64,000 bases of DNA from an uncultured virus (IMG/VR IMGVR_UViG_3300045004_000209) (IMGVR_UViG_3300045004_000209), one strand, 5' to 3'. Counted from the first letter of the stretch, positions 1,933 to 19,960 are shown. The notes: generated by a model from the sequence alone, not told the origin. Translations and numbers: made by a program.

Positions 1933-1939
1933 TGAATCT

Positions 1940-1980
1940 TCCGACCTACCACCCTGATGCGTGAATCAGGGGGTGTCGGA
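1940..1980 (+). promoter_or_regulatory. Intergenic stem-loop immediately 5' of the MCP ribosome-binding site
   Basis: TCCGAC(1940-45)/GTCGGA(1975-80) and CCCTGAT(1952-58)/ATCAGGG(1965-71) pair. GAAAGGA SD follows directly. Confidence 0.6.
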
Positions 1981-1995
1981 GAAAGGAAAAACACA

Positions 1996-2865
1996 ATGAG
2001 CATCAACAAAGATGGTTTGACTTACGACGAGAAAGAGGCCGTGATTGCACAGGCCTTGTCGACCGAGGAGGGGCGTGTTGCCCTTGCTCAAGCGATGGTG
2101 GAGCCGATTCGGCGTTCCCTGGAGTACCAGGCCGTCGGTCGCAAGCTCCTGATGGTGGACGAGCTCCCCCAAGGCGCTCTTCCCCGCTACGAGCGCGATG
2201 TTGCCTCCGTGGCCACAATCGTTGCCCGTCAGGGTGCAGTGCCTGATCAGATCACCGAGGGAGAGGAAGTTCTTGTCCCCACCTTCGAGATTGCAGCACA
2301 CCCCACCATCCGTCTGTCCGAGATCAAAGCACGTCGCTTCTACATCGTTGACCGTGCACAGATCAAGGCAAAGGAGGCAATCCAGAAGGAAGAGGATCGC
2401 AACATCTTCAACGCTCTGATTGCTGCTGCTCCAGCAGCTCAGGAGATCACCAATGTGGGCACTTTGGAGACTGCGTCTTTGAACACTGCCTACAAGTATA
2501 TTGAGACCCACGATCTGGTGGCCTCAAAGGTGGTCATGCATCCTGAGTCTTACTCAGCAGTCCGCAGCTTTGGAAAGGACTTCTATGATGAGGCCACCAC
2601 CCGTGAGATCCTCACCACTGGTCTTTACGGTCACCTGTGGACGGCTGACATCCATGTGTCAAGCCAGCTCGATGACACCAAGATTATCGTCACTGCTAGC
2701 CCAGACACCGTTGGCGCATTCCCCATCCGCCAGGACATCACTGTCCTTCCCGCCGATGATCCAAAGAAGCTGCGTCTTGGCTGGGTGATCTATGAGGAGG
2801 TCGGCATCGTGGTCATGAACGACTATGCCGTGTCCGTCATCACCGTGGATCCCACCACCACCTGA
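1996..2865 (+). CDS. Major capsid protein, HK97 fold (compact, encapsulin-like type), 289 aa
   Basis: Motifs AQAMVEPIRRSLEYQAVGRKLLMVDELPQG, PTFEIAAHPTI, AIQKEEDRNIF, VVMHP, GLYGHLWTADIHVS, GWVIYEEVGIVV match the capsid family I recall from large phages such as Bxz1/Myrna-like mycobacteriophages. SD GAAAGGA, strongly biased codons, followed by a terminator. Confidence 0.92.
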   Translation: MSINKDGLTYDEKEAVIAQALSTEEGRVALAQAMVEPIRRSLEYQAVGRKLLMVDELPQGALPRYERDVASVATIVARQGAVPDQITEGEEVLVPTFEIAAHPTIRLSEIKARRFYIVDRAQIKAKEAIQKEEDRNIFNALIAAAPAAQEITNVGTLETASLNTAYKYIETHDLVASKVVMHPESYSAVRSFGKDFYDEATTREILTTGLYGHLWTADIHVSSQLDDTKIIVTASPDTVGAFPIRQDITVLPADDPKKLRLGWVIYEEVGIVVMNDYAVSVITVDPTTT

Positions 2866-2890: not shown

Positions 2891-2926
2891 GACTACCCAC
2901 CCCGAAAGGGGTGGGTAGTTATTTTT
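2891..2926 (+). terminator. Rho-independent terminator after MCP
   Basis: Perfect 12-bp stem ACTACCCACCCC/GGGGTGGGTAGT with GAAA tetraloop, followed by TATTTTT. Confidence 0.92.
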
Positions 2927-3015
2927 CACGATTTTTGATATGAAAGTTGTTTATTTTTTTGTTGTTGAATATGGCAAGTTAATCAAGTAAAATATAAATA
3001 ATTCCTGTTTCCCCA

Positions 3016-3612: not shown

Positions 3613-3636
3613 AATTTATTTTCCGATAAATATACC

Positions 3637-5567: not shown

Positions 5568-5568
5568 C

Positions 5569-6294: not shown

Positions 6295-7042
6295 TTCCCC
6301 TCCAGATGGAAGACTTAGGATATCACCTAGAGTCAGACAGGTTGTGCTGCCAGCACATGGAGGATTTAGGGTGGAAAGAACTGACTGTTCAGGTCTCAAA
6401 ATCGGAATAGTAGACACGGGTGCTCCCACACATAGAGATATCAAGTTAAACAATCAGAGTAGGCAGGTTAGTATGGTTAATGGCGAAGAGCCATATGACC
6501 GAGATGGTCACGGCACTTCTGTATCGGGCATTTTATCTTCATCTCATGCCTCAGGTATTCCTGGTCTTTGTCATGAAGCCACTTTCTTTCACGCCAAGTG
6601 TGCAAAGTCTGACAGGTCGGGAGATATATCTGCTCTTGTCGGAGGACTTTTGTGGTGCATGGCTTCAAGGTGCGATATTGTGGTTTGCAGCCTAACATCT
6701 TCTGAAGAAGAGCATCTCGCTTCAGAAGTGATTAAAAAATTGCTTGCAAAAGAAATATTGATATTTTCTGCGGTTTCTGATACGCGTTCTTATGCCTTCC
6801 CGTCTTCGGCTTCTGGAGTTATTTCAGTCGCAGTAGGCGAAGTTAAATCCCCATCTGCTGACGGGATCAAGATAACCATGCCTAATTGGACATATGATAC
6901 CATGACCGTTGGAGACAGATTTATGGATTCTATAGGCTCTAGTTTTGCCAATGCTTTTGTTGCTGGTGTTGCTGCAAATATTATTGCTGCTAGTTCCGAT
7001 ATGGATTCAAGAGGCATAGTCAATAAAATGATGGAAATATAA
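6281..7042 (+). CDS. Subtilisin-like serine protease (peptidase S8)
   Basis: Catalytic triad motifs in D-H-S order: KIGIVDTG, DRDGHGTSVSGIL, GSSFANAFVAGVAA. GAGGAG SD before ATG 6281. Confidence 0.88.
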   Translation: MVLGDSPPDGRLRISPRVRQVVLPAHGGFRVERTDCSGLKIGIVDTGAPTHRDIKLNNQSRQVSMVNGEEPYDRDGHGTSVSGILSSSHASGIPGLCHEATFFHAKCAKSDRSGDISALVGGLLWCMASRCDIVVCSLTSSEEEHLASEVIKKLLAKEILIFSAVSDTRSYAFPSSASGVISVAVGEVKSPSADGIKITMPNWTYDTMTVGDRFMDSIGSSFANAFVAGVAANIIAASSDMDSRGIVNKMMEI

Positions 7043-7045
7043 GTC

Positions 7046-7819
7046 ATGCCATCATTTCCGGTGAGATTTATTGCACCAAGACAATCTGTTTTTTACTGTA
7101 TCTGCACATCAGAAGATGGTCTAAAGCTCAATCCATCTTCAGGTATTTTTTCATCTACCATAACGCATGCTTCTGCAGTTATCTCTTTAGAATTGCTTCG
7201 TTTCCCGATGTACGGTGCTTCAATAAAGGCTGACGGAATTAAAAATGACAGGGTAAATGTTTGCATCTATGAAAGGATGGGAGTTTCGCCAGCAGTTGAT
7301 GATCTGCTTTTGTCTCACGAAGAGTTGTTGTGGGATCCAATTCTTGGCGTGGCTCTTCGCGGTGATGATCCTTCGCAGGTTGCTTTGCGAGCCTTTCTAT
7401 CTGAAGAGAGCAGTAGGCTTGACAACTTTTTCATGTCTGGAGCTAGGGTCGGATCTGCATCTGTGTTCTATCCTTTCAATGAAAAAGTTGTATACGCAAA
7501 GGTTTCTGCAGGAGCATCAACTGCACAGGTTAGCAGGGTGTCATTGCGTATGGTAGATGCGGCTCTCAGAACTACTCAAGAACTCAAGCGGGTTTCCTAC
7601 AATCCTCCATACGGATCTTTGAGGTTTAATGAATTGAATGATGCTATGGCGGTGGCAGTAAAATCCGGAATGTATGCCTTGTGTTTTGAAGCTCCCTCTG
7701 GAGCAGTTGTTGGGTTTGGCTCTCCGATGCCGGGTGTTCAGGTTTCTCGGGCAGGTATTCCTGGCCGTATTGAAGTAACATCAACAGGCAGAACCTCGCA
7801 AGACTTGAGGAAATTCTGA
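7046..7819 (+). CDS. Hypothetical protein (possibly virion structural)
   Basis: 257-aa ORF tightly packed between neighbours. No motif recognised. Confidence 0.7.
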   Translation: MPSFPVRFIAPRQSVFYCICTSEDGLKLNPSSGIFSSTITHASAVISLELLRFPMYGASIKADGIKNDRVNVCIYERMGVSPAVDDLLLSHEELLWDPILGVALRGDDPSQVALRAFLSEESSRLDNFFMSGARVGSASVFYPFNEKVVYAKVSAGASTAQVSRVSLRMVDAALRTTQELKRVSYNPPYGSLRFNELNDAMAVAVKSGMYALCFEAPSGAVVGFGSPMPGVQVSRAGIPGRIEVTSTGRTSQDLRKF

Positions 7820-8817
7820 TGGCACTAAGTCAATCGACAGAGTCTCAAGGAACATTTACCCAAGGCACTTCAAACAGTTTGTTTCTGAGATTGACATCTC
7901 TCAATTCTCAGCCTGTCGCAGCCACCGATGTGTCTGTCACTCTGACCAGTCCGTCTGGAGAGGTTGATGTCGATGGAGATGTTGCAATCACCATATCTGA
8001 TGGTTATTATGCATACATATGGTCGGTTGCATCTGATGCAGAAGTGGGTCGATGGGATTTAACCTGGTCATATGATGATGGTGTTGGAATAAACACGATT
8101 ACTCAAGAGGTTGTCATAAATGAGAGGCCCGATCCAGAAAGTGTTTATTTTGGGCAGATTAGGGATCTTATAGTTGCTCTTGAATATCACATAAGACCAA
8201 CCATGAACATACCTGTGTATTTTGAGCAGGGTCGTCCGTCAAAAGACAACGCCACTTTTGCGTTTTCTTTTCCGAGGTGGAATCAGTCAGCAGGCGTCAG
8301 AATCTATAGGAACAACAACATCGTAGACGATGGCTTTTCTACGAATTATTTTCGTGGTACAGTTACTTTTAACACGCCATTTACATCATATGACATTGTG
8401 AATGCCGACTACAATTTCAGATGGTTTTCCGATGATCAACTGTACAGATTTTTGGCGAATGCTCTTGGCAGGTTTAATTTTTACCCGCCTAGAAGCAATT
8501 ACAGTCTTGCTTCAGTGCCATGCGAGATTGTCCCGGCTGTTCTTTACGGCGCTGCAGCAGATGCAATGAGAGAAATTATGCTGTCTTTAACTTTTCAGGA
8601 GCCGCAACTTGTTTTTGGTAGTGCTGAGCGTGCTTCAAATCTTTCGAGCAGCCTAGACACTTTGAAAAAGAATTATGAAGAGAGCGTTAAAGGCTTCTTG
8701 GATGGCAAGAAACTTGGTCCATATCCCAAGACTAGAAATATTGTCACTCCTGAATACGCTCTACCTGGCGGCAGGAGCAGATGGTTCAGATACATATTTA
8801 CAGGTGGTGGTGTATGA
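7819..8817 (+). CDS. Neck/head-tail adaptor-like protein with N-terminal Ig-like domain
   Basis: N-terminal beta-sandwich (DGYYAYIWSVASDAEVGRWDLTWSY). C-terminal helical FSDDQLYRFLANALGRFNFYPP...VLYGAA pattern typical of head-tail adaptors. Confidence 0.6.
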   Translation: MALSQSTESQGTFTQGTSNSLFLRLTSLNSQPVAATDVSVTLTSPSGEVDVDGDVAITISDGYYAYIWSVASDAEVGRWDLTWSYDDGVGINTITQEVVINERPDPESVYFGQIRDLIVALEYHIRPTMNIPVYFEQGRPSKDNATFAFSFPRWNQSAGVRIYRNNNIVDDGFSTNYFRGTVTFNTPFTSYDIVNADYNFRWFSDDQLYRFLANALGRFNFYPPRSNYSLASVPCEIVPAVLYGAAADAMREIMLSLTFQEPQLVFGSAERASNLSSSLDTLKKNYEESVKGFLDGKKLGPYPKTRNIVTPEYALPGGRSRWFRYIFTGGGV

Positions 8818-9110
8818 TCGTAAACAAGAAAGTTTTGCGAGAGTTGCTTGACAAGGTTGCAGGGGATGGTGATTGTTTCTTCTACGCCCTTGCTACTGAA
8901 GAGATGAAGAATTATATCATCAATGGTGATGATCCTGCAGTGAATAGGATGCCCAAAAATTTCAGAAACACTTTGCTTTCAGGGAGGGGTATTGCTCTTG
9001 AAAACGGGTTGTTGGTTAAGTTCGCTGCTGGTGAAGCAGACGCGGATACCACCCATGTGTTGAACATGTGCCATATCATGCTCAACGCTCCCATAAACAT
9101 CCAAGCATGA
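8814..9110 (+). CDS. Hypothetical protein
   Basis: ATGA overlaps at both ends. Confidence 0.65.
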   Translation: MIVNKKVLRELLDKVAGDGDCFFYALATEEMKNYIINGDDPAVNRMPKNFRNTLLSGRGIALENGLLVKFAAGEADADTTHVLNMCHIMLNAPINIQA

Positions 9111-9532
9111 AAAGAAAAAAAGCTAAAGACGAACCTATTTTTGAATCATATCCAGAATTTTGCAGATTGACTCGTCTGCTTAATGCAGATCAGTTGGCCT
9201 ATCTACGAGAGTGTATGGGAGACGAGCAGATAAACCAGTTGAGACGATCAAGAGACGAATCTGGTTTTTGGCAGTTGGAATTGGCTAATGAATTTGACAA
9301 CTTTTTGGTGCAGGTTGAGTCTTTGACAAACTTCAATCCAATAAAAATAAGACTACAGTTGCTTGAAGGGAGGCGTATCCGCCTCCCTTCGCCCGTTTGG
9401 GACGAAATCGTATCGCGTATGGAGGATGTGGACTCTTTATATGTTGCGATGCTCACGGATGGTGTTGTGTGCCGCCGTGATTCTCGTTCGTCTGATTTTG
9501 TCATCTTAACATTGGGAGGAAAAGCGACATGA
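9107..9532 (+). CDS. Hypothetical protein
   Basis: ATG 9107 overlaps the upstream stop. Its stop overlaps the phoH start. Confidence 0.7.
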   Translation: MKRKKAKDEPIFESYPEFCRLTRLLNADQLAYLRECMGDEQINQLRRSRDESGFWQLELANEFDNFLVQVESLTNFNPIKIRLQLLEGRRIRLPSPVWDEIVSRMEDVDSLYVAMLTDGVVCRRDSRSSDFVILTLGGKAT

Positions 9533-10218
9533 GCAACAAGTCCAAGCGCAAGCAGTTGATTGAGAGCAGTCGTCCTGGGTCCCATATAGCATTCAAGCCA
9601 CTTGATGAACATCAGAGGCAAGCTGTGAAAATAATTGAGGACAGCGCAGTGACCATGTTATATGGAATGGCGGGTACAGGAAAAACAACAATTGCCACTG
9701 GCATGGCTTTGCGGATGTTGAGTGAAAAACGAATAAGCAAAATTATTCTTACACGTCCTTACGTGAGCGCTGGCGAAAGACTAGGATACCTTCCTGGATC
9801 TCTTGAGCAAAAGTTCGATCCTTTTGTTGCTCCAATCAGGATGATTATGGAGAAAATTCTTGGGAAGAGCACGGCTAGCAGAATGATGGCATCTGATGAA
9901 ATTCAAATACTCCCTCTTGCCTTCATGCGTGGCGTCACTTTTGAAAACACTTTCATGATCATGGACGAGGCGCAAAACAGCACTCCTGAGCAGATGCACC
10001 TTTTCCTCACTAGGCTTGGTAAATCATCTAAAGCAGTTGTCGCAGGTGACGAATTCCAGTGCGATCTAGATTGCAGGTCGTCTAGGAATGGCTTGACAGA
10101 TGCTCTTAGAAGGCTCAAGAGCGTGGATGGGATTAGTCGTTTCCAATTCCCCCCAGAATCTTGCCAGCGACATGGTCTTGTTTCTAAGATAGACCTCAAA
10201 TACAAGGAAAAAAACTGA
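9529..10218 (+). CDS. phoH: PhoH-family ATPase
   Basis: Walker A GMAGTGKT, IILTRP, ERLGYLPGSLEQKFDP, PLAFMRGVTF, DEAQN, LTRLG, GDEFQCDL, RHGLV. Confidence 0.96.
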   Translation: MSNKSKRKQLIESSRPGSHIAFKPLDEHQRQAVKIIEDSAVTMLYGMAGTGKTTIATGMALRMLSEKRISKIILTRPYVSAGERLGYLPGSLEQKFDPFVAPIRMIMEKILGKSTASRMMASDEIQILPLAFMRGVTFENTFMIMDEAQNSTPEQMHLFLTRLGKSSKAVVAGDEFQCDLDCRSSRNGLTDALRRLKSVDGISRFQFPPESCQRHGLVSKIDLKYKEKN

Positions 10219-10224
10219 CATCAC

Positions 10225-10270
10225 TGCGGCGGTGTGGGGCGGGGTTCGTTTTCTGCCCCACACCTCCGCA
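10225..10270 (+). other. GC-rich intergenic stem-loop after phoH
   Basis: TGCGG/CCGCA and GGTGTGGGGC/GCCCCACACC perfect pairings. No 3' U-tract. Confidence 0.7.
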
Positions 10271-10320
10271 CAAGGATAGGTCGCAACAAGTCAGAAATAC
10301 TATTTATGGAAAAGTATATC

Positions 10321-12564
10321 ATGTTTTCACAGAAATTGCAAAAAACCGCATTTGGTGCTTGCGAATCGGTGACCCAGAAGCTTAATTTGATCAAGAATCG
10401 CAACGATAAATTGTACAAATACCTGACTGAAGTGGTCGACGCCATGCAGCGGGCTTCCGATGATCATACTAAGCATGTTGATGTTCGGAGTCAGGAGTTG
10501 AATAGCCTGATTGAGGATGCTTTTGAAAGAATTCATGGTCTCGAGAATCAGGAACATGTTCTCGAAGCGGCACGAGATGTTTTAACTGACAATCTTACAT
10601 GTTTAAAAGAGTTGTTGCAGACCCCCGAGGTGTCCATACAGGGTGATCGTGGTTCCCAACCTATTCGGGGCGGAGCCGCGCCCTTAAGGCACATGAGAGA
10701 GGTGCCGAATGTAAATCACGACGAGTCTCCATGTTCAACATTTCCTGAAGGACAAGATGACCTGCAAAGCATCATCGCACATCTGAATGATGTGGTATCT
10801 AAAGGCGATTTGCCAGAATTCGGCAGGCAAGCTCTTGCCAACCATCAAAGCGCTGCTCGTGCAGTATGTGTTAGGAATGGCTTGGGAACTGACTGGTTTA
10901 AAAGAAGATCAGATCCTCAATATCTTGAATATTTAAATGATATTGAAAGAGGGAGAGCAGTCATAGATGTTTCTGATTTTCATAGATCTAAGGGAAACTT
11001 TGTATATAGTTTTTTTGATGGGCATCGTGAAAAGATGCCTCGGCGTGTCCAAGATGAATTAAATCGTTCTAAAAAGAAAAATGTTCATGCAATATCTAAT
11101 AAAACTATTGATCAGATGCAAGGAATATCAACTAGTTTTGATGTTGTTGGCATCACGCTTCTATGCAGGCTTGTAAATCTCCTGCAGGGTGGCGACGAAG
11201 ATGTGGTTGCACATATGTTCGCATATGTGATTGACAAGCGTCGGAGTGAAATTGGAGTCAATCGATTCGAGCGGGATGAGTACGACTCTACTCTTGCAAT
11301 GGGAGTAGACGCAAATGAGCAGCGAGGTCTTGACATGATCGCGGACAGGCAAGGCGGAGATAGAGATCTTGATGTCTACATTCAGAGTGAAATTCAAAAT
11401 CTTGAGCGTCAGCCTCTTTCTGAATACAACGATAAAGCTATCAAAATTCTTGAAGAATTTAAAAATCAACTCGCCATCAAACTTGACACCCATATTAGCT
11501 CTTTGAAGGGCATACTTGATAGACTTTCCGTTGATACGATTGGTGCTGAACAGATGAAGGATAGGCAGGCGGCCGTAAATCCTATGAAAAATATTTTTAA
11601 GGAGTCTCTCGGAGATGCAAAGATAGCACGTGACAGGCTCATCGGAAGGTTTGATACGCTTATGAATGTTGCTAATCGTGGCTATTCAATTCCTGCACTG
11701 ACCATGCTAAAGTCGCTGTTTGACAAAAAGAAGACAGCGTATGTCAACCACAATCACGGTCAAATTGTAATCACCACACAAAGTGGTGATGTTAATGGGG
11801 GCATTAAGGTTTTGAATGCCATTGTTAGGGTAAATAGGGCTGATCCTCCGAGAGATTGGATGAAATTCGCACCTGATAATTACGACAAATCTGACCTTCA
11901 CAGTCTTCAGCAGAGTCGACCGAAAACTCCTTCCAAAAAAGAACAGGCTAAGCGTCGTTGCAAACAATTACTGGTGCACGAATTGGCTCCAAGAATTTCT
12001 AGTCTTCCTTTTGAGGAGAAGGTGCAGCAGATCAAAGATGCCATCAGCAGTAAAGAAATGGCTGAGTGTATGGCGCAGTTGTTGAAAGACAACACGAACA
12101 GAACCGTTGAGCGCATTCCAAAAAGTGGGCCGAATGCCTATAATTTGATATACGAAAAACTGCAGCAGGTTGTTAATGCATTCAGTATTGAGGCATGGCG
12201 AGAATCGTTGACAAATGCTGATCCTCAAGAGCAGAATAAGTTAGATAATGCTCTTGTGGAAGCATTCAATAAGGCGACTAGCAGAAACAATGATAGCCGA
12301 GATGCTGCAAGAGTGATTGCTAGCTTGGCTTTTAGCTTAAGACCGCATTTCATTAGTGATGCAGAAACTGTCGCACTGATAAATTTCATTGGGGAAGAGC
12401 CAGACAGCAAGGCTTGGCGGCTATCTGGTCTAGGCAGTGCAAATCGAGCTCGAGACCGAATGGCATTTATAGATGAAGAGTTCTTAGTCAAAGAGGCAGA
12501 ATGCAATCACGAAGATGTAAGGGGTTGCATGTTAAAATTGGCAAGGAGTTTGTTCCTTGCCTAA
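10321..12564 (+). CDS. Hypothetical large helical protein (about 747 aa), possibly an internal head protein
   Basis: Long charged alpha-helical ORF. Start at 10306 or 10321, since the 10234 start lies inside the hairpin. Confidence 0.75.
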   Translation: MFSQKLQKTAFGACESVTQKLNLIKNRNDKLYKYLTEVVDAMQRASDDHTKHVDVRSQELNSLIEDAFERIHGLENQEHVLEAARDVLTDNLTCLKELLQTPEVSIQGDRGSQPIRGGAAPLRHMREVPNVNHDESPCSTFPEGQDDLQSIIAHLNDVVSKGDLPEFGRQALANHQSAARAVCVRNGLGTDWFKRRSDPQYLEYLNDIERGRAVIDVSDFHRSKGNFVYSFFDGHREKMPRRVQDELNRSKKKNVHAISNKTIDQMQGISTSFDVVGITLLCRLVNLLQGGDEDVVAHMFAYVIDKRRSEIGVNRFERDEYDSTLAMGVDANEQRGLDMIADRQGGDRDLDVYIQSEIQNLERQPLSEYNDKAIKILEEFKNQLAIKLDTHISSLKGILDRLSVDTIGAEQMKDRQAAVNPMKNIFKESLGDAKIARDRLIGRFDTLMNVANRGYSIPALTMLKSLFDKKKTAYVNHNHGQIVITTQSGDVNGGIKVLNAIVRVNRADPPRDWMKFAPDNYDKSDLHSLQQSRPKTPSKKEQAKRRCKQLLVHELAPRISSLPFEEKVQQIKDAISSKEMAECMAQLLKDNTNRTVERIPKSGPNAYNLIYEKLQQVVNAFSIEAWRESLTNADPQEQNKLDNALVEAFNKATSRNNDSRDAARVIASLAFSLRPHFISDAETVALINFIGEEPDSKAWRLSGLGSANRARDRMAFIDEEFLVKEAECNHEDVRGCMLKLARSLFLA

Positions 12565-12772
12565 ACCAGAGGAGGTGGTCCATGAGTCTGAGGAGTTCAG
12601 GGTGGTGTGTCCTGCGTGTTTCTCTAGTACGGCGGCTCGTGGCAACGTGGAGATCAACTTCTCACAGGGCACGATTCACATGGTTTGTCCATCGTGCAAA
12701 AAGAGTTCGACGATGATTGTAGATCCATCAAAAAATTTCAAACCTTTACCGCGAACCAGATTGCAGGGCTGA
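12557..12772 (+). CDS. Small zinc-ribbon protein
   Basis: CPAC-x19-CPSC. TTG start with AAGGAG SD. Stop overlaps the next ATG. Confidence 0.75.
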   Translation: MPKPEEVVHESEEFRVVCPACFSSTAARGNVEINFSQGTIHMVCPSCKKSSTMIVDPSKNFKPLPRTRLQG

Positions 12773-13299
12773 TGTTTTTGGTAGTAAATACAACTAGGCA
12801 GCATTTGTCGCTTGGAGACCTAAAGGTCATTTTGTCTCCAAGTCAGTCTATAGATCTTGACATTGTTGCTGACAGGAGAATTGTCGAGGCAAGTCCTTCA
12901 GTCAAGAAAGCCGTGGTCGCCGGGTATCTGAGAGTGGTGGCAAAAGATTCTAGCCGTGGGCGCCAGAATACCATAGACATGGACGTATTGAGAAAAATAG
13001 TCAGAGAAGAAAATGACGGCAAGGCCATATCTGCCATAGCAGAATCATTAGCAGAGCTAAAAAATATGTTATCTTCCATGCCTGCCCCTCAAGTTGTTCA
13101 TGTTTCATCTCGGGTTGAAAAGATTGATGTTGTAGAATCAATATCTGAGCCGCAAGCCGAAAACCTTATAGCTATACATGAAAAAGTTGTTTCACGAATG
13201 GCGTCTAATCTTTCCACCAATATGGAACCTCAAAAAGGCAAATCTAAGGACGCGTCCGATATGAAGAAAAAATTAGATGAATTGGAGGGTCTTCTCTGA
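12772..13299 (+). CDS. Hypothetical protein with small N-terminal module and coiled-coil C-terminus (candidate actin partner)
   Basis: TGATG coupling on both sides. Ends DMKKKLDELEGLL. Confidence 0.75.
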   Translation: MFLVVNTTRQHLSLGDLKVILSPSQSIDLDIVADRRIVEASPSVKKAVVAGYLRVVAKDSSRGRQNTIDMDVLRKIVREENDGKAISAIAESLAELKNMLSSMPAPQVVHVSSRVEKIDVVESISEPQAENLIAIHEKVVSRMASNLSTNMEPQKGKSKDASDMKKKLDELEGLL

Positions 13300-14471
13300 T
13301 GAGTGCCAAGGAAAAAGCCATGCAGAATTTTGCCTCCCTAAAGCTTCGGTCGTCAGTGAATCCGAATACCCCTGTGCAAACTGCCAACAAGGCTGAATCG
13401 GTACAGGCGCAAGAGTCACACGCCCGAGCAGTGGGAGTTGATGTGGGAACTATGTTTTTTCAGACAGCAGAGCTCATTGATGACAAGATAAGCGTCTCTG
13501 CGGTCAGGAACGCATTTGTAGAAATCCCATATTCATCAGAATTGGAAGAGATCTTGACTAGAAATGGCTGGAGATATGTAAACGACGGAATGCAGTATTT
13601 TGTCGTTGGAGATGACTCCATGCAGGTTGCCAAGTTATTTCCTGGTTCGGTGGAGATTCGTCGTCCTCTTCAAGATGGAGTGCTCAATAGAGATGAACCA
13701 AAGAAGAGTTTGGTTCTTTCTGGCATTATAGAATCTTCTCTTGGTAAGGCCCCTGACGAAAATTCCGTTGTTTGCACATGCGTGTCGAGTCCGTGCGCTG
13801 ACGGTGGGCAGGACAGTACTTTCCATGCAGCTCGCCTCAAGGCCATGTTTACCCGCCTTGGCTGGAATGTAAAGGTCATAGAAGAAGGTCTTGCTGTCAT
13901 CCTCAGCGAGAGGCCGTCTGTTGTTCTTGATGACGGTACAGAAGTGCCGTTCAGTGGAATAGGAATGTCATTTGGTGCTGGTAGGGCAAACTGCGTTTTG
14001 GCATACAAGGGCATGCAGGTTCTTGGTATGTCTGTCAGCAGGAGCGGAGATTGGGTAGATAAACAGGTTTCAGAGCAGACTGCAGTACCTATGTCTCAGG
14101 TGATTGACTTCAAAGAGCGAGTTCTTGATTTTAAAAATATAGACGAAGACAATGACACAGCTTTTGCCCTTGACGCATATTACGATGCTATGCTCCGTCA
14201 TGTCGTGGGTTTGTTTGCTAAGAAGTTTACAGAAGTTAAGAGTCAGTTTGATAAGCCTCTTGATGTGGTGATCGCCGGAGGCACTTCTATGCCAAACGGT
14301 TTCGATAAGAAATTGGAAAGAATCATGTCTTCAATAAATTTGCCGTTCAAAATTGGCGATGTTCGCAAGGCTGCAGACCCGCGAAACGCGGTTTGCTCTG
14401 GGCTTTTAACATCTGCTCAGATTGTGAAGAATAGACTTGTCAAGGGAATTATAACTAGGGATCAGGTCTGA
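13299..14471 (+). CDS. Actin-superfamily ATPase, volactin-like
   Basis: Phosphate-1 VGVDVGTM, connect-1 IEEGLAVI, phosphate-2 variant GMSFGAG, GDWVD, adenosine VVIAGGTS, C-terminal DPRNAVCSGL. RNAF, VVGDD, RRPL.DGVL and SFGAG motifs match my recollection of the haloarchaeal volactin family. Confidence 0.88.
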   Translation: MSAKEKAMQNFASLKLRSSVNPNTPVQTANKAESVQAQESHARAVGVDVGTMFFQTAELIDDKISVSAVRNAFVEIPYSSELEEILTRNGWRYVNDGMQYFVVGDDSMQVAKLFPGSVEIRRPLQDGVLNRDEPKKSLVLSGIIESSLGKAPDENSVVCTCVSSPCADGGQDSTFHAARLKAMFTRLGWNVKVIEEGLAVILSERPSVVLDDGTEVPFSGIGMSFGAGRANCVLAYKGMQVLGMSVSRSGDWVDKQVSEQTAVPMSQVIDFKERVLDFKNIDEDNDTAFALDAYYDAMLRHVVGLFAKKFTEVKSQFDKPLDVVIAGGTSMPNGFDKKLERIMSSINLPFKIGDVRKAADPRNAVCSGLLTSAQIVKNRLVKGIITRDQV

Positions 14472-15196
14472 TGGGATATGCAACGCGAGACCTTTGCAAG
14501 CGTGTTTTTGCCCAGTCTTTTACGACTGCAACAGATCCAACGCTCACTCAGAAAGGCGATCTCGTCAACTTTGGTAACATGCTCAAGGGGAATGTGATAA
14601 CCGACGAGATTCTTGATCAGCACATTGTTCTCGCCGACCAGTACATAAACTCTATTTTGAGCTCCATGTACAGCACTCCACTGAGAGAGATAAGTGATGT
14701 GGAATTTGAACTTGTGGTAGACATTGATCCCTACAACACAGATGTTGTCATCATGAGTCCAAATGCAAATGTATTCGTTCCTGGTGATGTGATTGTGTTG
14801 ACAAATGGATTTATTAATGAGAGAAGAACAGTCGCTGATGTTGCGAACGGAACAAACCTCATCGTCAATGAACCTTTCTTGGTGGATTTTTCAGCCGCAG
14901 AATCACGATTGCTGCGCGTGAAATTCCCCGATCCTGTCCCGGGGACATCAGCACGTCTCTGTGTCGCCAGTCTATTTGACAGGTACTTCTCTTACATGAG
15001 CGCGACTGGAAACAGCGAATATGGCAAAGGGTTGAGAAATCAGGCACGCATCATGTTGAGCAATATATTGAATGGGAGAACTGTTCTTCATGGTCAGAAT
15101 AGAATCTCAAGCAGATTTGCCAACCCCACGCTTCTGAGTAGATATGCACTACCCAATACTGATCAGGATTCGACTAGAGACATTCCTGAGATGTGA
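14471..15196 (+). CDS. Head-tail joining protein (Mu gp36/DUF1320-like) with inserted beta domain
   Basis: MGYAT...ILDQHIVLADQYINSILSSMYSTPL...PDPV...SARL...ARIMLSNILNGRTVL fits the gp36-like pattern, interrupted by a ~70-aa beta-rich insert. Confidence 0.65.
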   Translation: MGYATRDLCKRVFAQSFTTATDPTLTQKGDLVNFGNMLKGNVITDEILDQHIVLADQYINSILSSMYSTPLREISDVEFELVVDIDPYNTDVVIMSPNANVFVPGDVIVLTNGFINERRTVADVANGTNLIVNEPFLVDFSAAESRLLRVKFPDPVPGTSARLCVASLFDRYFSYMSATGNSEYGKGLRNQARIMLSNILNGRTVLHGQNRISSRFANPTLLSRYALPNTDQDSTRDIPEM

Positions 15197-15198
15197 TC

Positions 15199-15456
15199 AT
15201 GGCAGAAATGAGAGATATTGTCAGCTCGGCTCTAGCGCAGATCAATGCCATAAAAGATGGGTCTGCCGAGTCTTCTAGTGCTCCATCTCGCATATATGCT
15301 AGCACAAGAATATTTTCCTCTAGAGAAGAGGCAACTCAAGACGCTGCAGTAAGAAGCGCTTCGCCCGAAGATGCTGCCAAGATGGACAAGATAAATGCGA
15401 TTGTGGAAGATATGCTTGATAGGGTTGTTGAAAAAATAATGAAATACCCACTTTGA
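15199..15456 (+). CDS. Hypothetical protein
   Basis: Short ORF filling the gap and coupled to the next gene. Confidence 0.6.
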   Translation: MAEMRDIVSSALAQINAIKDGSAESSSAPSRIYASTRIFSSREEATQDAAVRSASPEDAAKMDKINAIVEDMLDRVVEKIMKYPL

Positions 15457-16361
15457 TGTATAAGGTTCTCACTAGTCTCCGACAGATTATACACAGATGG
15501 GTTAACTTTCAATCTCCCATAACGGAGCCCATAGCTGTTGGTGACAATGTTTTGACGCTGAGAACTTCTCATCGCTTCAAGGTTGGCGATGATGTGCTGA
15601 TCACCGATGGTGAAGAATTTGAATATCCTCATATTGTTGTTGAGATTCCTGATGATACGCATGTAGTTCTTCAAGATGGTGTCAGATTTTCTGATTGGAA
15701 TGTTGGGAGCTGCAATTTGCGCAAGGCTGTGAAGGGGCAATTTATTCAGGGTATATATCTTGGGGATCCAAACACTATCATAAAATACCCTGCAATAACG
15801 ATAAATGGCAAGAGCAAGAACTCTGAATGGATTGGTTTGGAGGTAAGCAACGAAACATACGAGGTTGACATCGTCTGCTATGTTGCGGATGCCGCCCAAG
15901 AGGAGGGCTATGAGTATCTTTTACATCTTACCAACATTATAGAAACAGGTCTAAAGAAAAATCCTGTTGCTATTGCTGGCGATAAGGGATATGTGTCAAT
16001 CATAGCTGATATTGAGCAGGGTGATGTTTTTGTGAGGCTTGCAGATACAGACGGCATTACTGCAGGTCAGTTCATTTTGTTGGACAGTGTATTCATATCT
16101 GAAGATTGCCATGTGGCTGAGATCGTCGACGGTCAGGTGATCAGGCTGTCTGAGCCTGCAAAAAACGAGTATCTTGTAGTAAATGACCCCAAGGCCATAC
16201 TTGTTGAAAGATTTTTGTACAAATGTTGGCCAAGAAATATTGAGTATGGATTCGTCCATAAGGACACATTGCTGAAGGCTGCTAAAATAAGTTGGAGTGC
16301 AACCGAAGCCCAGATGCACCCTCCATACGGATTTGGCGATTCTTGGAGGCAGCCTCCGTGA
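15456..16361 (+). CDS. Tail terminator/tail completion-like protein with two inserted beta domains
   Basis: IYLGDP...YPAITI...YEVDIVCYV...LTNIIETGL...IEYG...AAKISW pattern of tail-terminator proteins. Located upstream of the tail tube. Confidence 0.55.
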   Translation: MYKVLTSLRQIIHRWVNFQSPITEPIAVGDNVLTLRTSHRFKVGDDVLITDGEEFEYPHIVVEIPDDTHVVLQDGVRFSDWNVGSCNLRKAVKGQFIQGIYLGDPNTIIKYPAITINGKSKNSEWIGLEVSNETYEVDIVCYVADAAQEEGYEYLLHLTNIIETGLKKNPVAIAGDKGYVSIIADIEQGDVFVRLADTDGITAGQFILLDSVFISEDCHVAEIVDGQVIRLSEPAKNEYLVVNDPKAILVERFLYKCWPRNIEYGFVHKDTLLKAAKISWSATEAQMHPPYGFGDSWRQPP

Positions 16362-17446
16362 TGATTGTTGCCGTGACAGGTTGCAGCCCTCATCTGTTGA
16401 CCGCCAACTCAAGAATTGGCGATGTCATATGGCGACATGTTCAAAAATCTTTTCCCGAACATGTTGGGGTGTTTTTTGATCTATCTGCTGATTTAGACAT
16501 CCCAAGGTGCTTGCCGTTGCCAAGAGGGGTTGCGGCAGCGGTCAACTTTGGCGCATTTTGCGAATCAGCGAAACCAGATCTGGTGATATCTTTTGGGGAT
16601 GACGCAGATGCCGCCCATGTCGCAGCCTGTAGGGTGGTCGGGATTGGCGATTTTGGATGGTTGCACATATTGAACGACTGCGAAAGACATGTTGACAGAC
16701 CCTACGATTCATGTCCTCTAGCTGATGCGGTCATAGCCTGCAGCAGGATGGCAGCAAACCAAGCTACCAGATCTGGTGCAAAAAATGTTCAAGTTTCTAT
16801 ACCGTCAACCGCCATGCTTTCGCAGGATGTGCACGGGATCAAGAGGGGGAAGTATTTTTTTGCACCCATGAGAAACTTTGAGTCTAATAATTTTTCATAC
16901 CTTCTGTCGGAATGGGAGAAGTCTGGTCTGTCTAGCGGTGGATGGGAGCTTGTGATCGGAACAAATGGGGCTGATCCTGGAGATTTTGACCTTGGTCGTG
17001 GGAGACTACCAGCAGGCTCTAGGCAGGCTTGGGCGGCCTCTTCTGTGGAGTACGGGGTGGACGACCTCCTGTACGCGCAGACGCTTGCTGGCGCTTGGGC
17101 GGCGATTTTCCCTGTCCTATGCCCGTCTTCTGCGGTTTCTGTGGTTGAAGCCGCCAAATTTGGGGTTGATTCGGTGGTGACCGACTGCCCAGTCTTCCGG
17201 GCCCTTGGATGCAGCCATCTCCTTCCATCTGTCCCGTTCATGTCTGCGCCAGGCAAGTTGCTGCATATACCGATTCCAGGGGCTCTTTCAGAGACATTGG
17301 TGGCCTTATCGTCCCTATCAGAACCCTCGCGACCTTGCGATCTTTCGGCTATTCCCAACCATCTTGATATTTTTATCAAATTGCTGCCATTAATCTCAAG
17401 AAGGGAAGCAGGGAAACTTGATGTAGAAAGTGTAACATCATTATGA
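16361..17446 (+). CDS. Divergent GT-B glycosyltransferase (GT4-like)
   Basis: KPDLVISFGD, ADAVIACSRMA, AAIFP...SVVEAAKFGVDSVVTDCP (degenerate EX7E region). Confidence 0.7.
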   Translation: MIVAVTGCSPHLLTANSRIGDVIWRHVQKSFPEHVGVFFDLSADLDIPRCLPLPRGVAAAVNFGAFCESAKPDLVISFGDDADAAHVAACRVVGIGDFGWLHILNDCERHVDRPYDSCPLADAVIACSRMAANQATRSGAKNVQVSIPSTAMLSQDVHGIKRGKYFFAPMRNFESNNFSYLLSEWEKSGLSSGGWELVIGTNGADPGDFDLGRGRLPAGSRQAWAASSVEYGVDDLLYAQTLAGAWAAIFPVLCPSSAVSVVEAAKFGVDSVVTDCPVFRALGCSHLLPSVPFMSAPGKLLHIPIPGALSETLVALSSLSEPSRPCDLSAIPNHLDIFIKLLPLISRREAGKLDVESVTSL

Positions 17447-17462
17447 ACCATCGGAGGAGCAA

Positions 17463-17831
17463 ATGGCAGTAATTTCAGCAGCAGAATACAAGAATCTTTC
17501 GGATTATATTGCAGAGTGTAAGGCGACCTTGTTGCTGGCTAAGGATTCTGTGTATAGCGCTGTGTACGAAATTGCGCTATTTGACACGGTCCAGCCTTCA
17601 ATTGACCTCTTGTCACCTTTTTTCAGCAGTTATGAAGCAGTGACCGCGAACACACAGGCAACCACGACCCTGAATTCTGCCGTGGCAGCCCTAAACAACC
17701 ATGTGTTGCGCAGGACAAATGCTTCTCTTGACAGTTTCTTGCAGGCAGGCGACATTCAAGTTGACCCAGTTTTTGCGGAGTTGAGTTCAAATTTAGGCTT
17801 CACCATCAGTGCAGACAACATTGAATCCTGA
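17463..17831 (+). CDS. Hypothetical helical protein, likely structural
   Basis: Strong GGAGGAG SD. Directly upstream of the tail tube gene. Confidence 0.75.
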   Translation: MAVISAAEYKNLSDYIAECKATLLLAKDSVYSAVYEIALFDTVQPSIDLLSPFFSSYEAVTANTQATTTLNSAVAALNNHVLRRTNASLDSFLQAGDIQVDPVFAELSSNLGFTISADNIES

Positions 17832-17872
17832 TGAGTCTGTTCTCACGATCATCGACGAGATGAGGTAAAATA

Positions 17873-18877
17873 ATGCCATCATTTGAGGAACCTATTAGTA
17901 ACCAAAATTTTCCCGTGCGTGCTGGATTCCCTGGCGTGGTGGCCATCAACGGGAGTATCCTGCGTGTAACGACTTGCAACATCAAGGGTGAACAGTCAAT
18001 TGAACCAGTTGAGGATATCGACGGCAGCATTGACATGACCAGATACAAGATGGGCAATTTTAAGGCATCAGGCCAAGTAAAGTTCACCCTAGATAAGGCA
18101 CAGGATGGCGGAAACCTCGACACCTTCGCGGAGTTGTGGACTGCTGCAGGCAGGAGAACGGCAGATGGCAAATTCGCGAAAACTGTTGATGTGGTGGTTC
18201 ATTACCACTCTGGTTTCACATTTGTATACGAAGACATGGTCGTTGACAAAATAACACTGGATATATCTGCCAATGGTACCTTGGATTGCACTGCTGAATT
18301 CCGAGGCAGGGGTCGTCGGGCAGCAACAGCAGCGGATGCTCTTCCCAACTTAACAACTGCAGATGCGGAATCTCCTCTCCGTGTTATCTCTTACAACGAT
18401 GTAACCATCGGCATGGAGAACATGAACAATGGTGGTGTCAATCAAAATGAGTTCAAATTAATTAAGCAATTCAATGTAACAATTGACAACCAGTCGGAAG
18501 AGGTGTATGTCATCGCGGGGCAGTTGGCTCCATACGACATCCTGCCAAAGAAGCGTAAGATAACTGGTAGTATAACATTTTTTGGTCGCCCATCAACCTT
18601 GGCCGATCAGGCAAAAAATCGGGAAGATGATCCGGGCGAAAATATCCCGCATGTCAATCTTATGTTGCAGGCCAAAATCGGACCAACCCCGACAACTCTT
18701 GTGAAGTTCTTCGGCTGCGTCTTCCAGTTGGACAGCACAGAACTCACCAACGGAATCATCGAGACACCCATGGCATTTGTTTCTTTAGGTACCGACGCCG
18801 GCAGGTATCTTGCGATATCTGATTATGGTGGTGAACCGTGGAGTATGGGAGATCAGCCACACCCATTCCCTCTATAA
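17873..18877 (+). CDS. Major tail (tube) protein
   Basis: GAGGT SD. Beta-rich with two Hcp/tube-like halves (ASGQVKFTL...VVDKITLDISANGTLDCTAEFRG; FNVTIDN...RKITGSITF). Immediately precedes the frameshifting chaperone and tape measure. Confidence 0.75.
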   Translation: MPSFEEPISNQNFPVRAGFPGVVAINGSILRVTTCNIKGEQSIEPVEDIDGSIDMTRYKMGNFKASGQVKFTLDKAQDGGNLDTFAELWTAAGRRTADGKFAKTVDVVVHYHSGFTFVYEDMVVDKITLDISANGTLDCTAEFRGRGRRAATAADALPNLTTADAESPLRVISYNDVTIGMENMNNGGVNQNEFKLIKQFNVTIDNQSEEVYVIAGQLAPYDILPKKRKITGSITFFGRPSTLADQAKNREDDPGENIPHVNLMLQAKIGPTPTTLVKFFGCVFQLDSTELTNGIIETPMAFVSLGTDAGRYLAISDYGGEPWSMGDQPHPFPL

Positions 18878-18897
18878 TCATCCGATAAAATAGGTTC

Positions 18898-19535: not shown

Positions 19536-19536
19536 C

Positions 19537-19917: not shown

Positions 19918-19960
19918 GTATGCATTGTGTTAGAAAATAGACAGAGAGGCGGACTCTGTC

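What the first reader, a model, noticed from the sequence alone, without database searches (positions are those of the whole stretch)
12557..14471. Phage-encoded volactin-like actin module (Zn-ribbon + adaptor + actin) embedded in the head-neck operon
Seen: three translationally coupled genes (TGATG overlaps) whose last member has all five actin-fold motifs, with the unusual phosphate-2 variant SFGAG. It is coupled directly to a head-tail joining gene. Known: phage cytoskeletal proteins are mainly tubulins (PhuZ/TubZ) or ParM/Alp segregation actins linked to DNA functions, and volactin is a haloarchaeal cell-shape actin. Inference: a late-expressed actin filament with a coiled-coil adaptor and a Zn-ribbon partner could position capsids or organise assembly sites. 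That would be an actin-based counterpart of PhuZ capsid trafficking.
Basis: partly seen in the sequence, partly recalled or inferred. Interest (0 to 1): 0.85.

Follow-up and report, generated by a model that had tools for sequence, protein, structure and literature searches.

The report
Core actin gene of huge lake phages
A clade of half-megabase lake-water phages carries one conserved actin gene, with two small partner genes, directly in front of its head-to-tail joining genes, so these phages may build their own actin cytoskeleton during particle assembly.

Summary
ORF 13299-14471 (390 aa) matches Pfam Volactin PF25216 end to end (196 bits, cut-off 35). It folds confidently (pLDDT 91.7), and its best structural matches are filament-forming actins: MamK Z 29, BeeR, Mbl/MreB, actin.

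The window is part of a 164-kb fragment of a huge phage. Complete relatives are 461-548 kb. Each has one copy of this actin and none has a tubulin (0 of 5).

In 39 related phage loci the order Zn-ribbon (37/39), 175-aa protein (39/39), actin (39/39), Mu-gp36-like head-tail adaptor (37/39 directly behind) is kept. The actin is the best-conserved gene of the block. It carries inteins at three sites in some relatives and homing-endonuclease genes beside it in others, which marks a core gene.

The 175-aa protein has a conserved N-domain, a variable helical linker and a conserved C-terminal tail, like a cargo adaptor. A complex prediction with the actin gave only weak support.

SFGAG is the family consensus, not an oddity. 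Polymerisation, timing and cargo remain inferred.

Best reading: a filament-forming phage actin working with two partners at virion assembly (about 0.4). Main rival: a ParM/AlpC-like DNA-positioning system. I found no report of it in the searched papers.

The parts
10234..12564 (+). 776-aa ORF directly upstream. Its stop overlaps the Zn-ribbon start. Its position is conserved but its sequence is hypervariable (context, perhaps a fourth member of the block).
   Evidence: ORF. No Pfam family; one sub-threshold PHROG hit (phrog_32915, E 0.0051). An iterated HMM from it finds only 2 of 39 loci. An ORF of 600 aa or more ends at the Zn-ribbon start in 34 of 37 loci, and these ORFs fall into 17 phmmer clusters at E 1e-5.
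12557..12772 (+). 71-aa zinc-ribbon protein (Zn71): four Cys (18, 21, 44, 47) and a conserved LP+xR tail.
   Evidence: Only sub-threshold Zn-ribbon Pfam hits. Found in 37 of 39 related loci, always just before p175. In alignment A6, C21, C44, C47, F35 and P65 are invariant.
12772..13299 (+). 175-aa adaptor-like protein (p175): conserved N-domain (about 1-60), variable helical linker, conserved IHxRTV helix and a C-terminal DELEGLL tail.
   Evidence: Found in 39 of 39 loci by iterated HMM. Alignment A5. AF2: residues 1-60 at pLDDT >92, the rest low. No Pfam, PHROG, PDB or fold match. ESM Atlas gives only virus-only clusters.
13299..14471 (+). 390-aa Volactin-family actin. The actin core is residues about 44-380. 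The N-terminal 40 residues are disordered and present only in the closest relatives.
   Evidence: PF25216 at 195.9 bits. AF2 pLDDT 91.7, pTM 0.87. VIA: MamK Z 29.1, BeeR 28.1, Mbl 27.8. Found in 39 of 39 loci at 50-86% identity.
14471..15196 (+). 241-aa Mu gp36-like head-tail adaptor, start overlapping the actin stop (TGATG).
   Evidence: An ORF of 180-300 aa starts -1 to 126 nt after the actin stop in 37 of 39 loci.
15453..16361 (+). 302-aa conserved neck/tail-module protein of unknown fold (context).
   Evidence: Found in 39 of 39 loci. No PDB hit with the ortholog profile.
17873..18877 (+). Tail tube protein (context; marks the module as neck/tail).
   Evidence: Pfam Phage_tube_2 at 5.7e-17; PHROG 290 at 3.2e-19. 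Found in 34 of 39 loci.
1957..2865 (+). Major capsid protein, followed by a strong terminator-like hairpin at 2891-2920 (context).
   Evidence: phrog_2522 at 2.4e-66. Terminator scan. 72-78% identical in 5 complete relatives.

Best explanation
ORF 13299-14471 encodes a true actin-fold ATPase of the Volactin family. It is a single-copy core gene of a clade of roughly 0.46-0.55 Mb tailed phages from lake water, and these phages have no tubulin.

Most likely it binds ATP and polymerises into dynamic filaments in the infected cell. It is probably made together with the neck and tail genes whose operon it heads.

The two small proteins encoded just before it probably work with it. p175 looks like a cargo adaptor: a folded N-terminal domain for the cargo, a flexible helical linker, and a conserved C-terminal peptide that would dock on the actin. 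The Zn-ribbon protein would be a second linker or regulator.

The cargo is inferred from gene position only: capsids or neck and tail intermediates, brought together or positioned for head-tail joining.

Shown: family membership, fold, conservation and synteny. Inferred: polymerisation (about 0.7), partnership with p175 and Zn71 (about 0.5), and a role in virion assembly or positioning (about 0.35).
For: Identity:
- PF25216 at 195.9 bits, full length.
- No other actin-like Pfam family at E<=0.01 except sub-threshold MreB.
- AF2 pLDDT 91.7.
- All 50 listed Foldseek PDB matches and all 50 listed VIA matches are MreB/Mbl, MamK, BeeR, crenactin, actin or Arp chains. MamK 5ljv: Z 29.1, rmsd 2.8 over 297 aa.
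- D48, G50, T51, G226, G228, G327, G328 and G368 are invariant in 50 family members.

Core-gene status:
- 39 of 39 related loci carry it.
- Each of 5 complete genomes (98-100% complete, 461-548 kb) has one copy and no tubulin.
- Across 12 related loci it is 55-68% identical, against 37-52% for the adaptor, 23-35% for the tube and 23-42% for p175. MCP is 72-78% identical in the 5 complete genomes.
- Inteins with LAGLIDADG or HNH domains sit at three different sites of the phosphate-2 region in four database orthologs.
- A free-standing LAGLIDADG_2 endonuclease gene lies just upstream of the actin in 6 of 39 loci, and an HNH gene in 1.
- The clade forms one branch of the family tree: 23 rows, SH-like support 100, stem 0.66.

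Module:
- The order Zn71-p175-actin-adaptor is kept, with TGATG or short gaps. Zn71 to p175 is 17 nt or less, or overlapping, in 35 of 37 loci. p175 to actin is 79 nt or less in 28 of 39. Actin to adaptor is 13 nt or less in 28 of 39.
- No strong terminator lies on the + strand between 3.6 and 19 kb.

Partner:
- The p175 architecture is that of an adaptor.
- The complex prediction of actin 40-390 with p175 gave weak support. The median score of three runs was 0.39 and the best of 3 controls was 0.00. That mark was reached by 116 of 157 solved complexes and 2 of 215 mismatched pairs. At 0.60 or under, only 18 of those 157 and both of the mismatches passed, so such a pass is more often wrong than right unless the guess was likely beforehand. 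The runs agree in at least 71% of contacts and the partner pLDDT is at least 57.

Expression (weak):
- In two lake-water RNA-Seq metatranscriptome runs from two studies, contigs 90-97% identical to the window cover parts of Zn71 (12510-12798) and the actin (13354-13838). They also span the actin/adaptor junction (14112-14869), as well as MCP, PhoH and the tube.
- The tool warns that RNA libraries can hold DNA and that contigs show neither levels nor transcript ends.

Precedent: VolA forms dynamic filaments in vivo (PMC10869688, passages read).
Against:
- The family lacks the phosphate-2 Asp found in MreB, ParM and actin (Ser in SFGAG; the comparison residue is recalled). ATPase chemistry may therefore differ.
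- The complex result is only weak, and no interface was given.
- The p175 N-domain has no recognisable fold (best VIA Z 4.2, best Foldseek E 0.52), so its cargo is unknown.
- In 9 of 39 loci, 0.7-2.1 kb of other genes separate p175 from the actin, so translational coupling of these two is not obligatory.
- Gene position is the only link to virion assembly. Timing of expression is not shown.
- Many cellular PF25216 members are fused to DNA-binding domains (HU, ParB-HTH), which fits a DNA cargo at least as well.
- Two other huge phages (LR745208, LR756511) have family members at 27-29% identity whose neighbours show no detectable homology to this module.
Confidence: 0.4

Rival explanations
1. 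A ParMRC/AlpAC-like DNA-positioning system. The actin filament moves or anchors the half-megabase phage genome (replication site, segregation in a carrier state, or delivery to packaging sites). Zn71 and/or p175 would be the DNA-binding adaptor.
For: - The layout of an actin plus small co-oriented adaptor genes resembles AlpC/AlpA of prophage CGP3. There the adaptor is co-transcribed, binds DNA and binds the actin (PMC4446434, abstract).
- Cellular PF25216 members are fused to HU (P0157) and to the ParB HTH domain (P0213 above cut-off; P0173 and P0233 just below it).
- Zinc ribbons often bind nucleic acid (general knowledge).
- One complete relative is classed 'provirus' by IMG/VR.
Against: - There is no centromere-like repeat array in 9000-15500, only two-copy short matches.
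- There is no intergenic space upstream, because the Zn71 start overlaps the preceding ORF.
- No ParM-type, RHH or HTH Pfam hit appears in the actin, p175 or Zn71.
- The module is fixed to the neck and tail genes in 37 of 39 loci, not to replication genes.
- AlpAC are early genes, whereas this block is co-directional and tightly packed with structural genes.
Confidence: 0.25
2. A non-polymerising actin-fold ATPase that acts as an assembly chaperone for neck, tail or giant fibre proteins, in the manner of Hsp70-like virion-assembly factors.
For: - It sits in a morphogenesis block in front of very large tail proteins (1033-2726 aa).
- Viral Hsp70 homologues appear among the BFVD fold matches.
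- The phosphate-2 motif lacks the usual Asp (the comparison is recalled).
Against: - No HSP70 Pfam hit.
- The listed PDB fold matches are filament formers or Arps, with no Hsp70 or sugar kinase among the 50 rows shown. Unlisted rows are not excluded.
- The BFVD Hsp70 matches have high rmsd (5.8-12 A) and cover only the nucleotide-binding domain of much longer proteins.
- The characterised family member VolA polymerises.
Confidence: 0.1
3. A host-takeover factor. The phage actin would remodel host cell shape or displace the host MreB system, for example to enlarge the cell for very large virions, echoing volactin's role in cell shape.
For: - VolA affects the rod-to-disk transition in Haloferax (PMC10869688, passages).
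- The fold is close to MreB/Mbl.
- The window copy has an N-terminal helix at residues 3-15 that could be membrane-targeting (speculative).
Against: - The N-terminal extension is absent from most orthologs, which start at about residue 40.
- No RodZ/MreC/MreD-like neighbour was found.
- A fixed position in front of the head-tail adaptor is not expected for a takeover gene.
- Nothing links p175 or Zn71 to the envelope.
Confidence: 0.1

Closest known systems
Volactin (VolA, HVO_2015) of Haloferax volcanii; Pfam PF25216
   Same: - It is in the same Pfam family, with a full-length match at 196 bits.
- The Haloferax control genome is the only one of 14 controls that passes the cut-off in the same search.
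- It has the same actin fold and the same family motifs, including SFGAG.
- VolA forms dynamic filaments in vivo (PMC10869688, passages).
   Different: - It is phage-encoded and sits on a separate long-stemmed branch of the family tree.
- It scores lower against the family model (196-224 bits) than cellular members do (206-305 bits).
- It lies in a virion-morphogenesis block with two dedicated small partners, not in a cell-shape context.
- The VolA sequence itself could not be fetched, so pairwise identity and orthology were not measured.
AlpC/AlpA of Corynebacterium glutamicum prophage CGP3
   Same: A phage-encoded actin-like protein with a co-transcribed small adaptor that binds the actin and a cargo (PMC4446434, abstract).
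   Different: - AlpAC are early genes, the cargo is phage DNA bound at a site in the operon's promoter, and the phage is an ordinary-sized prophage.
- Here there is no upstream intergenic site or repeats, the genes sit with the neck and tail genes, and the actin belongs to the Volactin family.
- Sequence similarity to AlpC was not tested, because no AlpC sequence was at hand.
ParM/ParR/parC type II partition systems of plasmids and phage-plasmids
   Same: An actin-fold filament former encoded with a small adaptor. ParR docks on ParM through a C-terminal peptide (recalled), and the conserved p175 C-terminal tail could do the same.
   Different: - No ParM-type Pfam match.
- No parC-like repeats.
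- The adaptor genes lie upstream of the actin rather than downstream (the ParMRC order is recalled and is as described in PMC8026635 passages).
- The context is structural genes.
MamK and MreB/Mbl (bacterial actins)
   Same: They are the best structural matches: MamK filament 5ljv at Z 29.1, Mbl at 27.8, MreB 4cze at 26.7.
   Different: - Sequence identity is only 14-19%.
- The MreB Pfam model scores below its cut-off (17.6 vs 27 bits).
- The PDB sequence search finds MamK only at E 0.6.
PhuZ/TubZ tubulin cytoskeleton of nucleus-forming jumbo phages
   Same: The possible role is analogous: a phage-encoded dynamic filament that organises late infection and capsid traffic (function recalled; see also the abstracts listed).
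   Different: - The fold is different (tubulin vs actin).
- Tubulin PF00091 is absent from 5 of 5 complete relatives of this phage.
- No functional data exist for the actin.

Membership tests
Volactin family (Pfam PF25216) | Full-length match to the family HMM above the curated cut-off | tested here: met
   195.9 bits vs cut-off 35, profile positions 2-321 of 321, E 1.5e-57. 196 bits in the six-frame genome search.
Volactin family (Pfam PF25216) | Actin/ASKHA two-lobed fold | tested here: met
   AF2 pLDDT 91.7, pTM 0.87. VIA Z 26-29 to MamK, BeeR, Mbl/MreB, actin and crenactin over about 290-320 residues.
Volactin family (Pfam PF25216) | Conserved nucleotide-binding motifs (phosphate 1, connect 1, phosphate 2, adenosine, connect 2; names recalled) | tested here: met
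   GVDVGT 46-51, IEEGLAV 194-200, SFGAG 224-228, IAGGTS 325-330 and G368. D48, G50, T51, G226, G228, G327, G328 and G368 are invariant in 50 members.
Volactin family (Pfam PF25216) | Dynamic polymerisation into filaments (the property shown for VolA) | not testable with these tools
   It needs biochemistry or imaging.
Volactin family (Pfam PF25216) | Orthology to haloarchaeal VolA (same subclade) | not tested
In a tree of 139 family rows the phage clade is a separate branch.
ParM / type II partition (ParMRC) | ParM-type sequence family | tested here: not met
   The Pfam scan at E<=0.01 returns only Volactin and sub-threshold MreB_Mbl.
ParM / type II partition (ParMRC) | Adjacent centromere of iterated repeats | tested here: not met
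   Only two-copy 14-25 nt matches in 9000-15500. There is no intergenic region upstream of the module.
ParM / type II partition (ParMRC) | DNA-binding ParR-type adaptor (RHH) | tested here: inconclusive
   p175 and Zn71 have no RHH or HTH Pfam hit, and p175 has no fold match. DNA binding by the Zn-ribbon is not excluded.
MreB/Mbl (Pfam PF06723) | Match above the curated cut-off | tested here: not met
   17.6 bits vs cut-off 27.
Hsp70-like ATPases | HSP70 family match with a substrate-binding domain | tested here: not met
   No HSP70 Pfam hit. The protein ends with the actin core at residue 390. Viral Hsp70s match only weakly by fold.
Mu gp36 head-tail adaptor (downstream gene 14471-15196) | Match to Pfam PF07030 | tested here: inconclusive
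   The window copy scores 19.3 bits, below cut-off 24.7. 18 of 32 orthologs match at E<=0.01, best 3.9e-5. PHROG 195 at 5e-5. A PDB DUF1320 chain at E 0.047.

The most novel reading that the evidence does not exclude
Tubulin-less half-megabase phages run an actin-based assembly line. The volactin-type filament is loaded through the C-terminal tail of p175, and the p175 N-domain (with the Zn-ribbon protein) grips DNA-filled capsids or neck complexes. Heads and the very large tails would then be brought together on a phage-built track. This would be an actin counterpart of PhuZ capsid trafficking, arising independently.
Probability: 0.3. Interest if true: 0.85.

Novelty: new variant of a known kind. 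Interest (0 to 1): 0.7.

Why it matters
Phage cytoskeletons are known mainly as tubulins (PhuZ, TubZ) and as ParM/Alp actins tied to DNA maintenance.

This actin is different in three ways:
- It comes from a different family, one so far characterised only in a haloarchaeon.
- It is a single-copy core gene of an abundant, uncultured clade of about 0.5 Mb lake phages.
- It is fixed in front of the head-tail joining genes, with two clade-specific partners.

If it polymerises and carries virion parts, then very large phages would have solved intracellular organisation at least twice, once with tubulin and once with actin.

It also gives a compact system that can be expressed (three small genes) for studying a Volactin-family filament and its adaptors. 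No member of this family has a solved structure: the PDB sequence search found nothing below E 0.3.

The inteins and homing endonucleases that target the gene mark it independently as essential.

Tried and rejected
- Tree rows: 139 rows were used. These were the window, 20 of the 35 distinct clade actins, 2 other huge-phage actins, and 116 of 150 listed representatives. The other 34 were dropped as fragments, intein-split, or covering under 80% of the domain. The method was FastTree and the tree is unrooted.
- Earlier findings of this scan: none for this genome.
- PHROGs: no family for the actin, p175 or Zn71.
- INPHARED phages: only two uncultured huge phages at 27-29% identity. Their neighbours gave no significant match to the module HMMs. 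The best was a 207-aa ORF directly upstream of the LR745208 actin against the p175 HMM at E 0.059, which is not significant.
- p175 fold: VIA-wide best Z 4.2 and Foldseek best E 0.52 (B. subtilis YqbF), which I treat as no match. PDB profile searches for p175, p302 and p122 found nothing below E 0.08.
- Rosetta-stone test: the p175 and Zn71 HMMs found no significant match in 273 stored family proteins.
- Repeats and promoters: no repeat array. Promoter-like sites were not above the shuffled expectation (35 found vs 28.5 +/- 5.3).
- RNA contigs: several stretches of window 1-20000 had no cover in the RNA-library contigs (for example 3336-4002 and 5337-7337). Two of the four runs laid look like the other two filed twice.
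- Literature: searches found no paper describing an actin as a conserved gene of huge or jumbo phages.
  - In PMC7824862 and PMC13282480, 'actin', 'MreB' and 'ParM' gave no relevant passage.
  - In PMC12363816 and PMC4870245 the term occurs only in reference lists.
  - No supplementary files were consulted. Papers outside the held library are not covered.

Full report
OBSERVATION

The three ORFs exist as described on the + strand:
- 12557-12772: 71 aa, four Cys at 18, 21, 44 and 47.
- 12772-13299: 175 aa.
- 13299-14471: 390 aa.

The stop/start overlaps read TGATG at 12769, 13296 and 14468, and again at 15453. The start of the first gene overlaps the stop of a 776-aa ORF upstream.

The 390-aa protein matches Pfam Volactin (PF25216) at E 1.5e-57, 195.9 bits against a cut-off of 35, over profile positions 2-321 of 321. 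The only other family at E<=0.01 is MreB_Mbl, below its cut-off. No PHROG family matches the actin, p175 or Zn71.

The motif stretches are GVDVGT 46-51, IEEGLAV 194-200, SFGAG 224-228, IAGGTS 325-330 and G368. In an alignment of 50 family members (28-87% identical), D48, G50, T51, R122, H176, G226, G228, G250, K272, G327, G328 and G368 are invariant, and the consensus itself reads SFGAG. The 'unusual' phosphate-2 is therefore a family trait.

WHAT THE ELEMENT IS

The window is bases 32722-96721 (minus strand) of a 164,107-bp IMG/VR virus record. CheckV puts it at 39% complete.

The surroundings are those of a tailed phage:
- A Mu-like portal 5-7 kb before the window, then a 1904-aa ORF running into the window.
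- MCP at 1957-2865 (phrog_2522, 2.4e-66), followed by a strong hairpin terminator.
- Glycosyltransferases, an S8 protease, PhoH and the 776-aa ORF.
- The three-gene module.
- A Mu-gp36-like adaptor, conserved unknowns and a tail tube (Phage_tube_2, 5.7e-17).
- A run of giant ORFs of 1033-2726 aa, all co-directional.

The rest of the contig carries RNR, ThyX, dUTPase, SOD, a sigma-70-like protein, a C5 methylase and a Tad3-like protein.

By shared 31-mers the stretch is held in lake-water metagenomes. Of 24 listed runs, 11 hold half or more of the sampled words, and 5 of those may be the source.

FOLD

AlphaFold2 with the 50-row alignment gives pLDDT 91.7 and pTM 0.87. Only residues 1-40 are disordered.

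The listed Foldseek PDB matches are Mbl/MreB, MamK, BeeR and eukaryotic actins, at E 1e-12 to 7e-15. VIA-align gives:
- MamK 5ljv: Z 29.1, rmsd 2.8 over 297 residues.
- BeeR 8r2n: Z 28.1.
- Mbl: Z 27.8.
- Actin: about Z 26.5.
- Crenactin: Z 26.4.

By sequence alone nothing in the PDB passes E 0.3, so the family has no solved member. Among viral models the nearest are an unnamed protein, Bacillus phage G gp506 and viral Hsp70s, all with poor rmsd.

DISTRIBUTION AND CONSERVATION

The word-indexed search found 606 relatives at E<=1e-3. The best 120 are all 57-94% identical and carry PF25216, on contigs up to 465 kb. The only names are 'hypothetical protein' or 'actin-like ATPase involved in cell morphogenesis'. 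The exhaustive representative search found 834 at E<=1e-3 and 172 at E<=1e-30.

Two scans of IMG/VR gave 12 and 39 loci (35 distinct actins) at 50-86% identity, on contigs up to 548 kb.

Five relatives are complete (98-100%, 461-548 kb, three with terminal repeats). Each has one PF25216 gene (200-224 bits) and none has a tubulin domain.

In those five genomes MCP is 72-78% identical to the window's MCP, and the actin is 55-63% identical. Across the first 12 loci the identities are:
- Actin: 55-68%.
- Adaptor: 37-52%.
- p302: 33-45%.
- Tube: 23-35%.
- Zn-ribbon: 32-46%.
- p175: 23-42%.

SYNTENY

Iterated HMMs over the 39 loci find:
- Zn-ribbon in 37.
- p175 in 39.
- Actin in 39.
- p302 in 39.
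- p122 in 37.
- Tube in 34.
- PhoH in 31.
- The 776-aa ORF in only 2.

The order is always the same. An adaptor-sized ORF starts -1 to 126 nt behind the actin in 37 of 39 loci, and within 13 nt in 28. Of 32 adaptor orthologs, 18 hit Phage_Mu_Gp36 at E<=0.01.

MCP lies 10.4 kb upstream here but 23-45 kb upstream in four complete relatives. The actin therefore belongs with the neck/tail block rather than with the capsid gene.

SELFISH ELEMENTS MARK THE GENE AS CORE

Four database orthologs of about 700-730 aa carry inteins (Intein_splicing with LAGLIDADG_3 or HNH_3). They sit at three different sites in the phosphate-2 region:
- Inside S-F-G-A-G.
- After N231.
- Before the invariant G250-D251.

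In 6 of 39 loci a free-standing LAGLIDADG_2 endonuclease gene sits between p175 and the actin. One locus has an HNH gene there, and two others have other ORFs.

THE PARTNERS

Zn71 has a core of about 56 aa with invariant C21, C44, C47, F35 and P65.

The p175 alignment of 32 sequences shows:
- A conserved N-terminal domain of about 58 aa.
- A variable linker.
- A conserved IHxRTV helix.
- A nearly invariant C-terminal tail, DELEGLL.

AF2 gives pLDDT >92 for residues 1-60 (a small alpha/beta domain) and low-confidence helices after it. Neither fold search nor PDB profile search finds a relative. The ESM Atlas knows only virus-only hypothetical clusters.

The complex prediction of actin 40-390 with p175 gave 'weak support'. 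The median score was 0.39 and the best of three controls was 0.00. By the tool's calibration, such a pass at or under 0.60 was reached by 18 of 157 solved complexes and by both of the 2 (of 215) mismatches that passed. The runs agree in at least 71% of contacts, the partner pLDDT is at least 57, and no interface was reported.

FAMILY CONTEXT

In a FastTree of 139 PF25216 rows, the phage clade forms one branch (23 rows, support 100, stem 0.66). The actins of LR745208 and LR756511 fall elsewhere, apart from each other.

Cellular members come from Patescibacteria and Planctomycetota MAGs, among others. They show many fusions:
- HU.
- ParB HTH.
- Receiver domain.
- Ser/Thr kinase.
- Wzz/BY-kinase.

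The DNA-binding fusions keep the DNA-cargo rival alive. No repeat array and no upstream intergenic region are present here.

EXPRESSION

RNA-library contigs from two lake studies, 90-97% identical to the window, cover parts of the Zn-ribbon gene and the actin gene. They also span the actin/adaptor junction, as well as MCP, PhoH and the tube. This is weak evidence, because DNA carry-over is not excluded and contigs give no levels or ends.

VERDICT

Identity as a Volactin-family actin of a huge phage: about 0.95. The conserved three-gene module at the head of the neck/tail block is shown.

Polymerisation (about 0.7), partnership with p175 and Zn71 (about 0.5) and a role in virion assembly or positioning (about 0.35) are inferences.

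The main rival is an AlpAC/ParMRC-like DNA-positioning system (0.25). Lesser rivals are a non-polymerising assembly chaperone (0.1) and host-shape takeover (0.1).

I found no report of such a gene in huge phages in six literature searches. Phage actins as such are known (AlpC; PMC4446434 abstract), so I class this as a new variant of a known kind.

Noticed in passing
window 10234-12564; the ORF ending at the Zn71 start in L022-L060: A large ORF (600-1185 aa in 34 of 37 loci) always ends at the Zn-ribbon start, but its sequence is hypervariable. It falls into 17 phmmer clusters at E 1e-5, and the window's copy is recognisable in only 2 of 39 loci. It is a fast-evolving protein sandwiched between conserved genes.
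   Followed up: partly
database proteins P0121, P0123, P0124, P0132; loci L029, L030, L034, L035, L038, L040, L054: There are inteins at three different sites of the actin's phosphate-2 region. Free-standing LAGLIDADG or HNH homing-endonuclease genes lie just upstream of the actin in 7 of 39 loci.
   Followed up: yes
window 2891-2920: A 13-bp GC-rich hairpin with a T-tail lies directly after the major capsid gene. It is the only strong terminator-like site on the + strand in the first 20 kb.
   Followed up: no
window 3598-4983, 35599-36657, 16292-17446; L014:16373-17530, L014:5935-7551, L014:10887-11726: Several glycosyltransferase genes lie inside and beside the structural module (GT1/GT4, a PLOD-type GT, a GT10 fucosyltransferase). 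This hints at glycosylated virion proteins or host-surface modification.
   Followed up: no
window 6260-7042: An S8 subtilase-family protease (Peptidase_S8, 1.7e-13) lies among the head genes. It may be the prohead maturation protease, which would be an unusual family for that job.
   Followed up: no
window 19961-63999 and beyond (G000 downstream): There is an uninterrupted run of giant co-directional ORFs (1033, 1515, 1357, 1222, 2660, 1333, 2726, 1777 and 4092 aa) after the tail tube. One has an RCC1 repeat and one an fn3 domain. They are presumably tape measure, baseplate and fibre proteins.
   Followed up: no
L014:13977-14471 (contig upstream of the window): A 165-aa protein matches Pfam Tad3 (type I Thoeris inhibitor, 1.5e-13). 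It lies next to thioredoxin and AdoMet decarboxylase genes.
   Followed up: no
database proteins P0157, P0173, P0213, P0215, P0222, P0224, P0233: Cellular Volactin-family proteins occur fused to HU, ParB-HTH, receiver, Ser/Thr kinase and Wzz/BY-kinase domains. The family is architecturally far more diverse than the single characterised haloarchaeal member suggests.
   Followed up: partly
window 1-1295 (ORF continues upstream, 1904 aa in all): A 1904-aa ORF with no Pfam match lies between the Mu-like portal and the capsid gene, where small head-morphogenesis genes are usual.
   Followed up: no
L020:8331-8951 (LR745208.1): In a distantly related 485-kb phage, the ORF directly upstream of its volactin-family gene is the top hit of the p175 HMM. 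The hit is not significant (E 0.059). This is possibly the same adaptor at a greater distance.
   Followed up: partly
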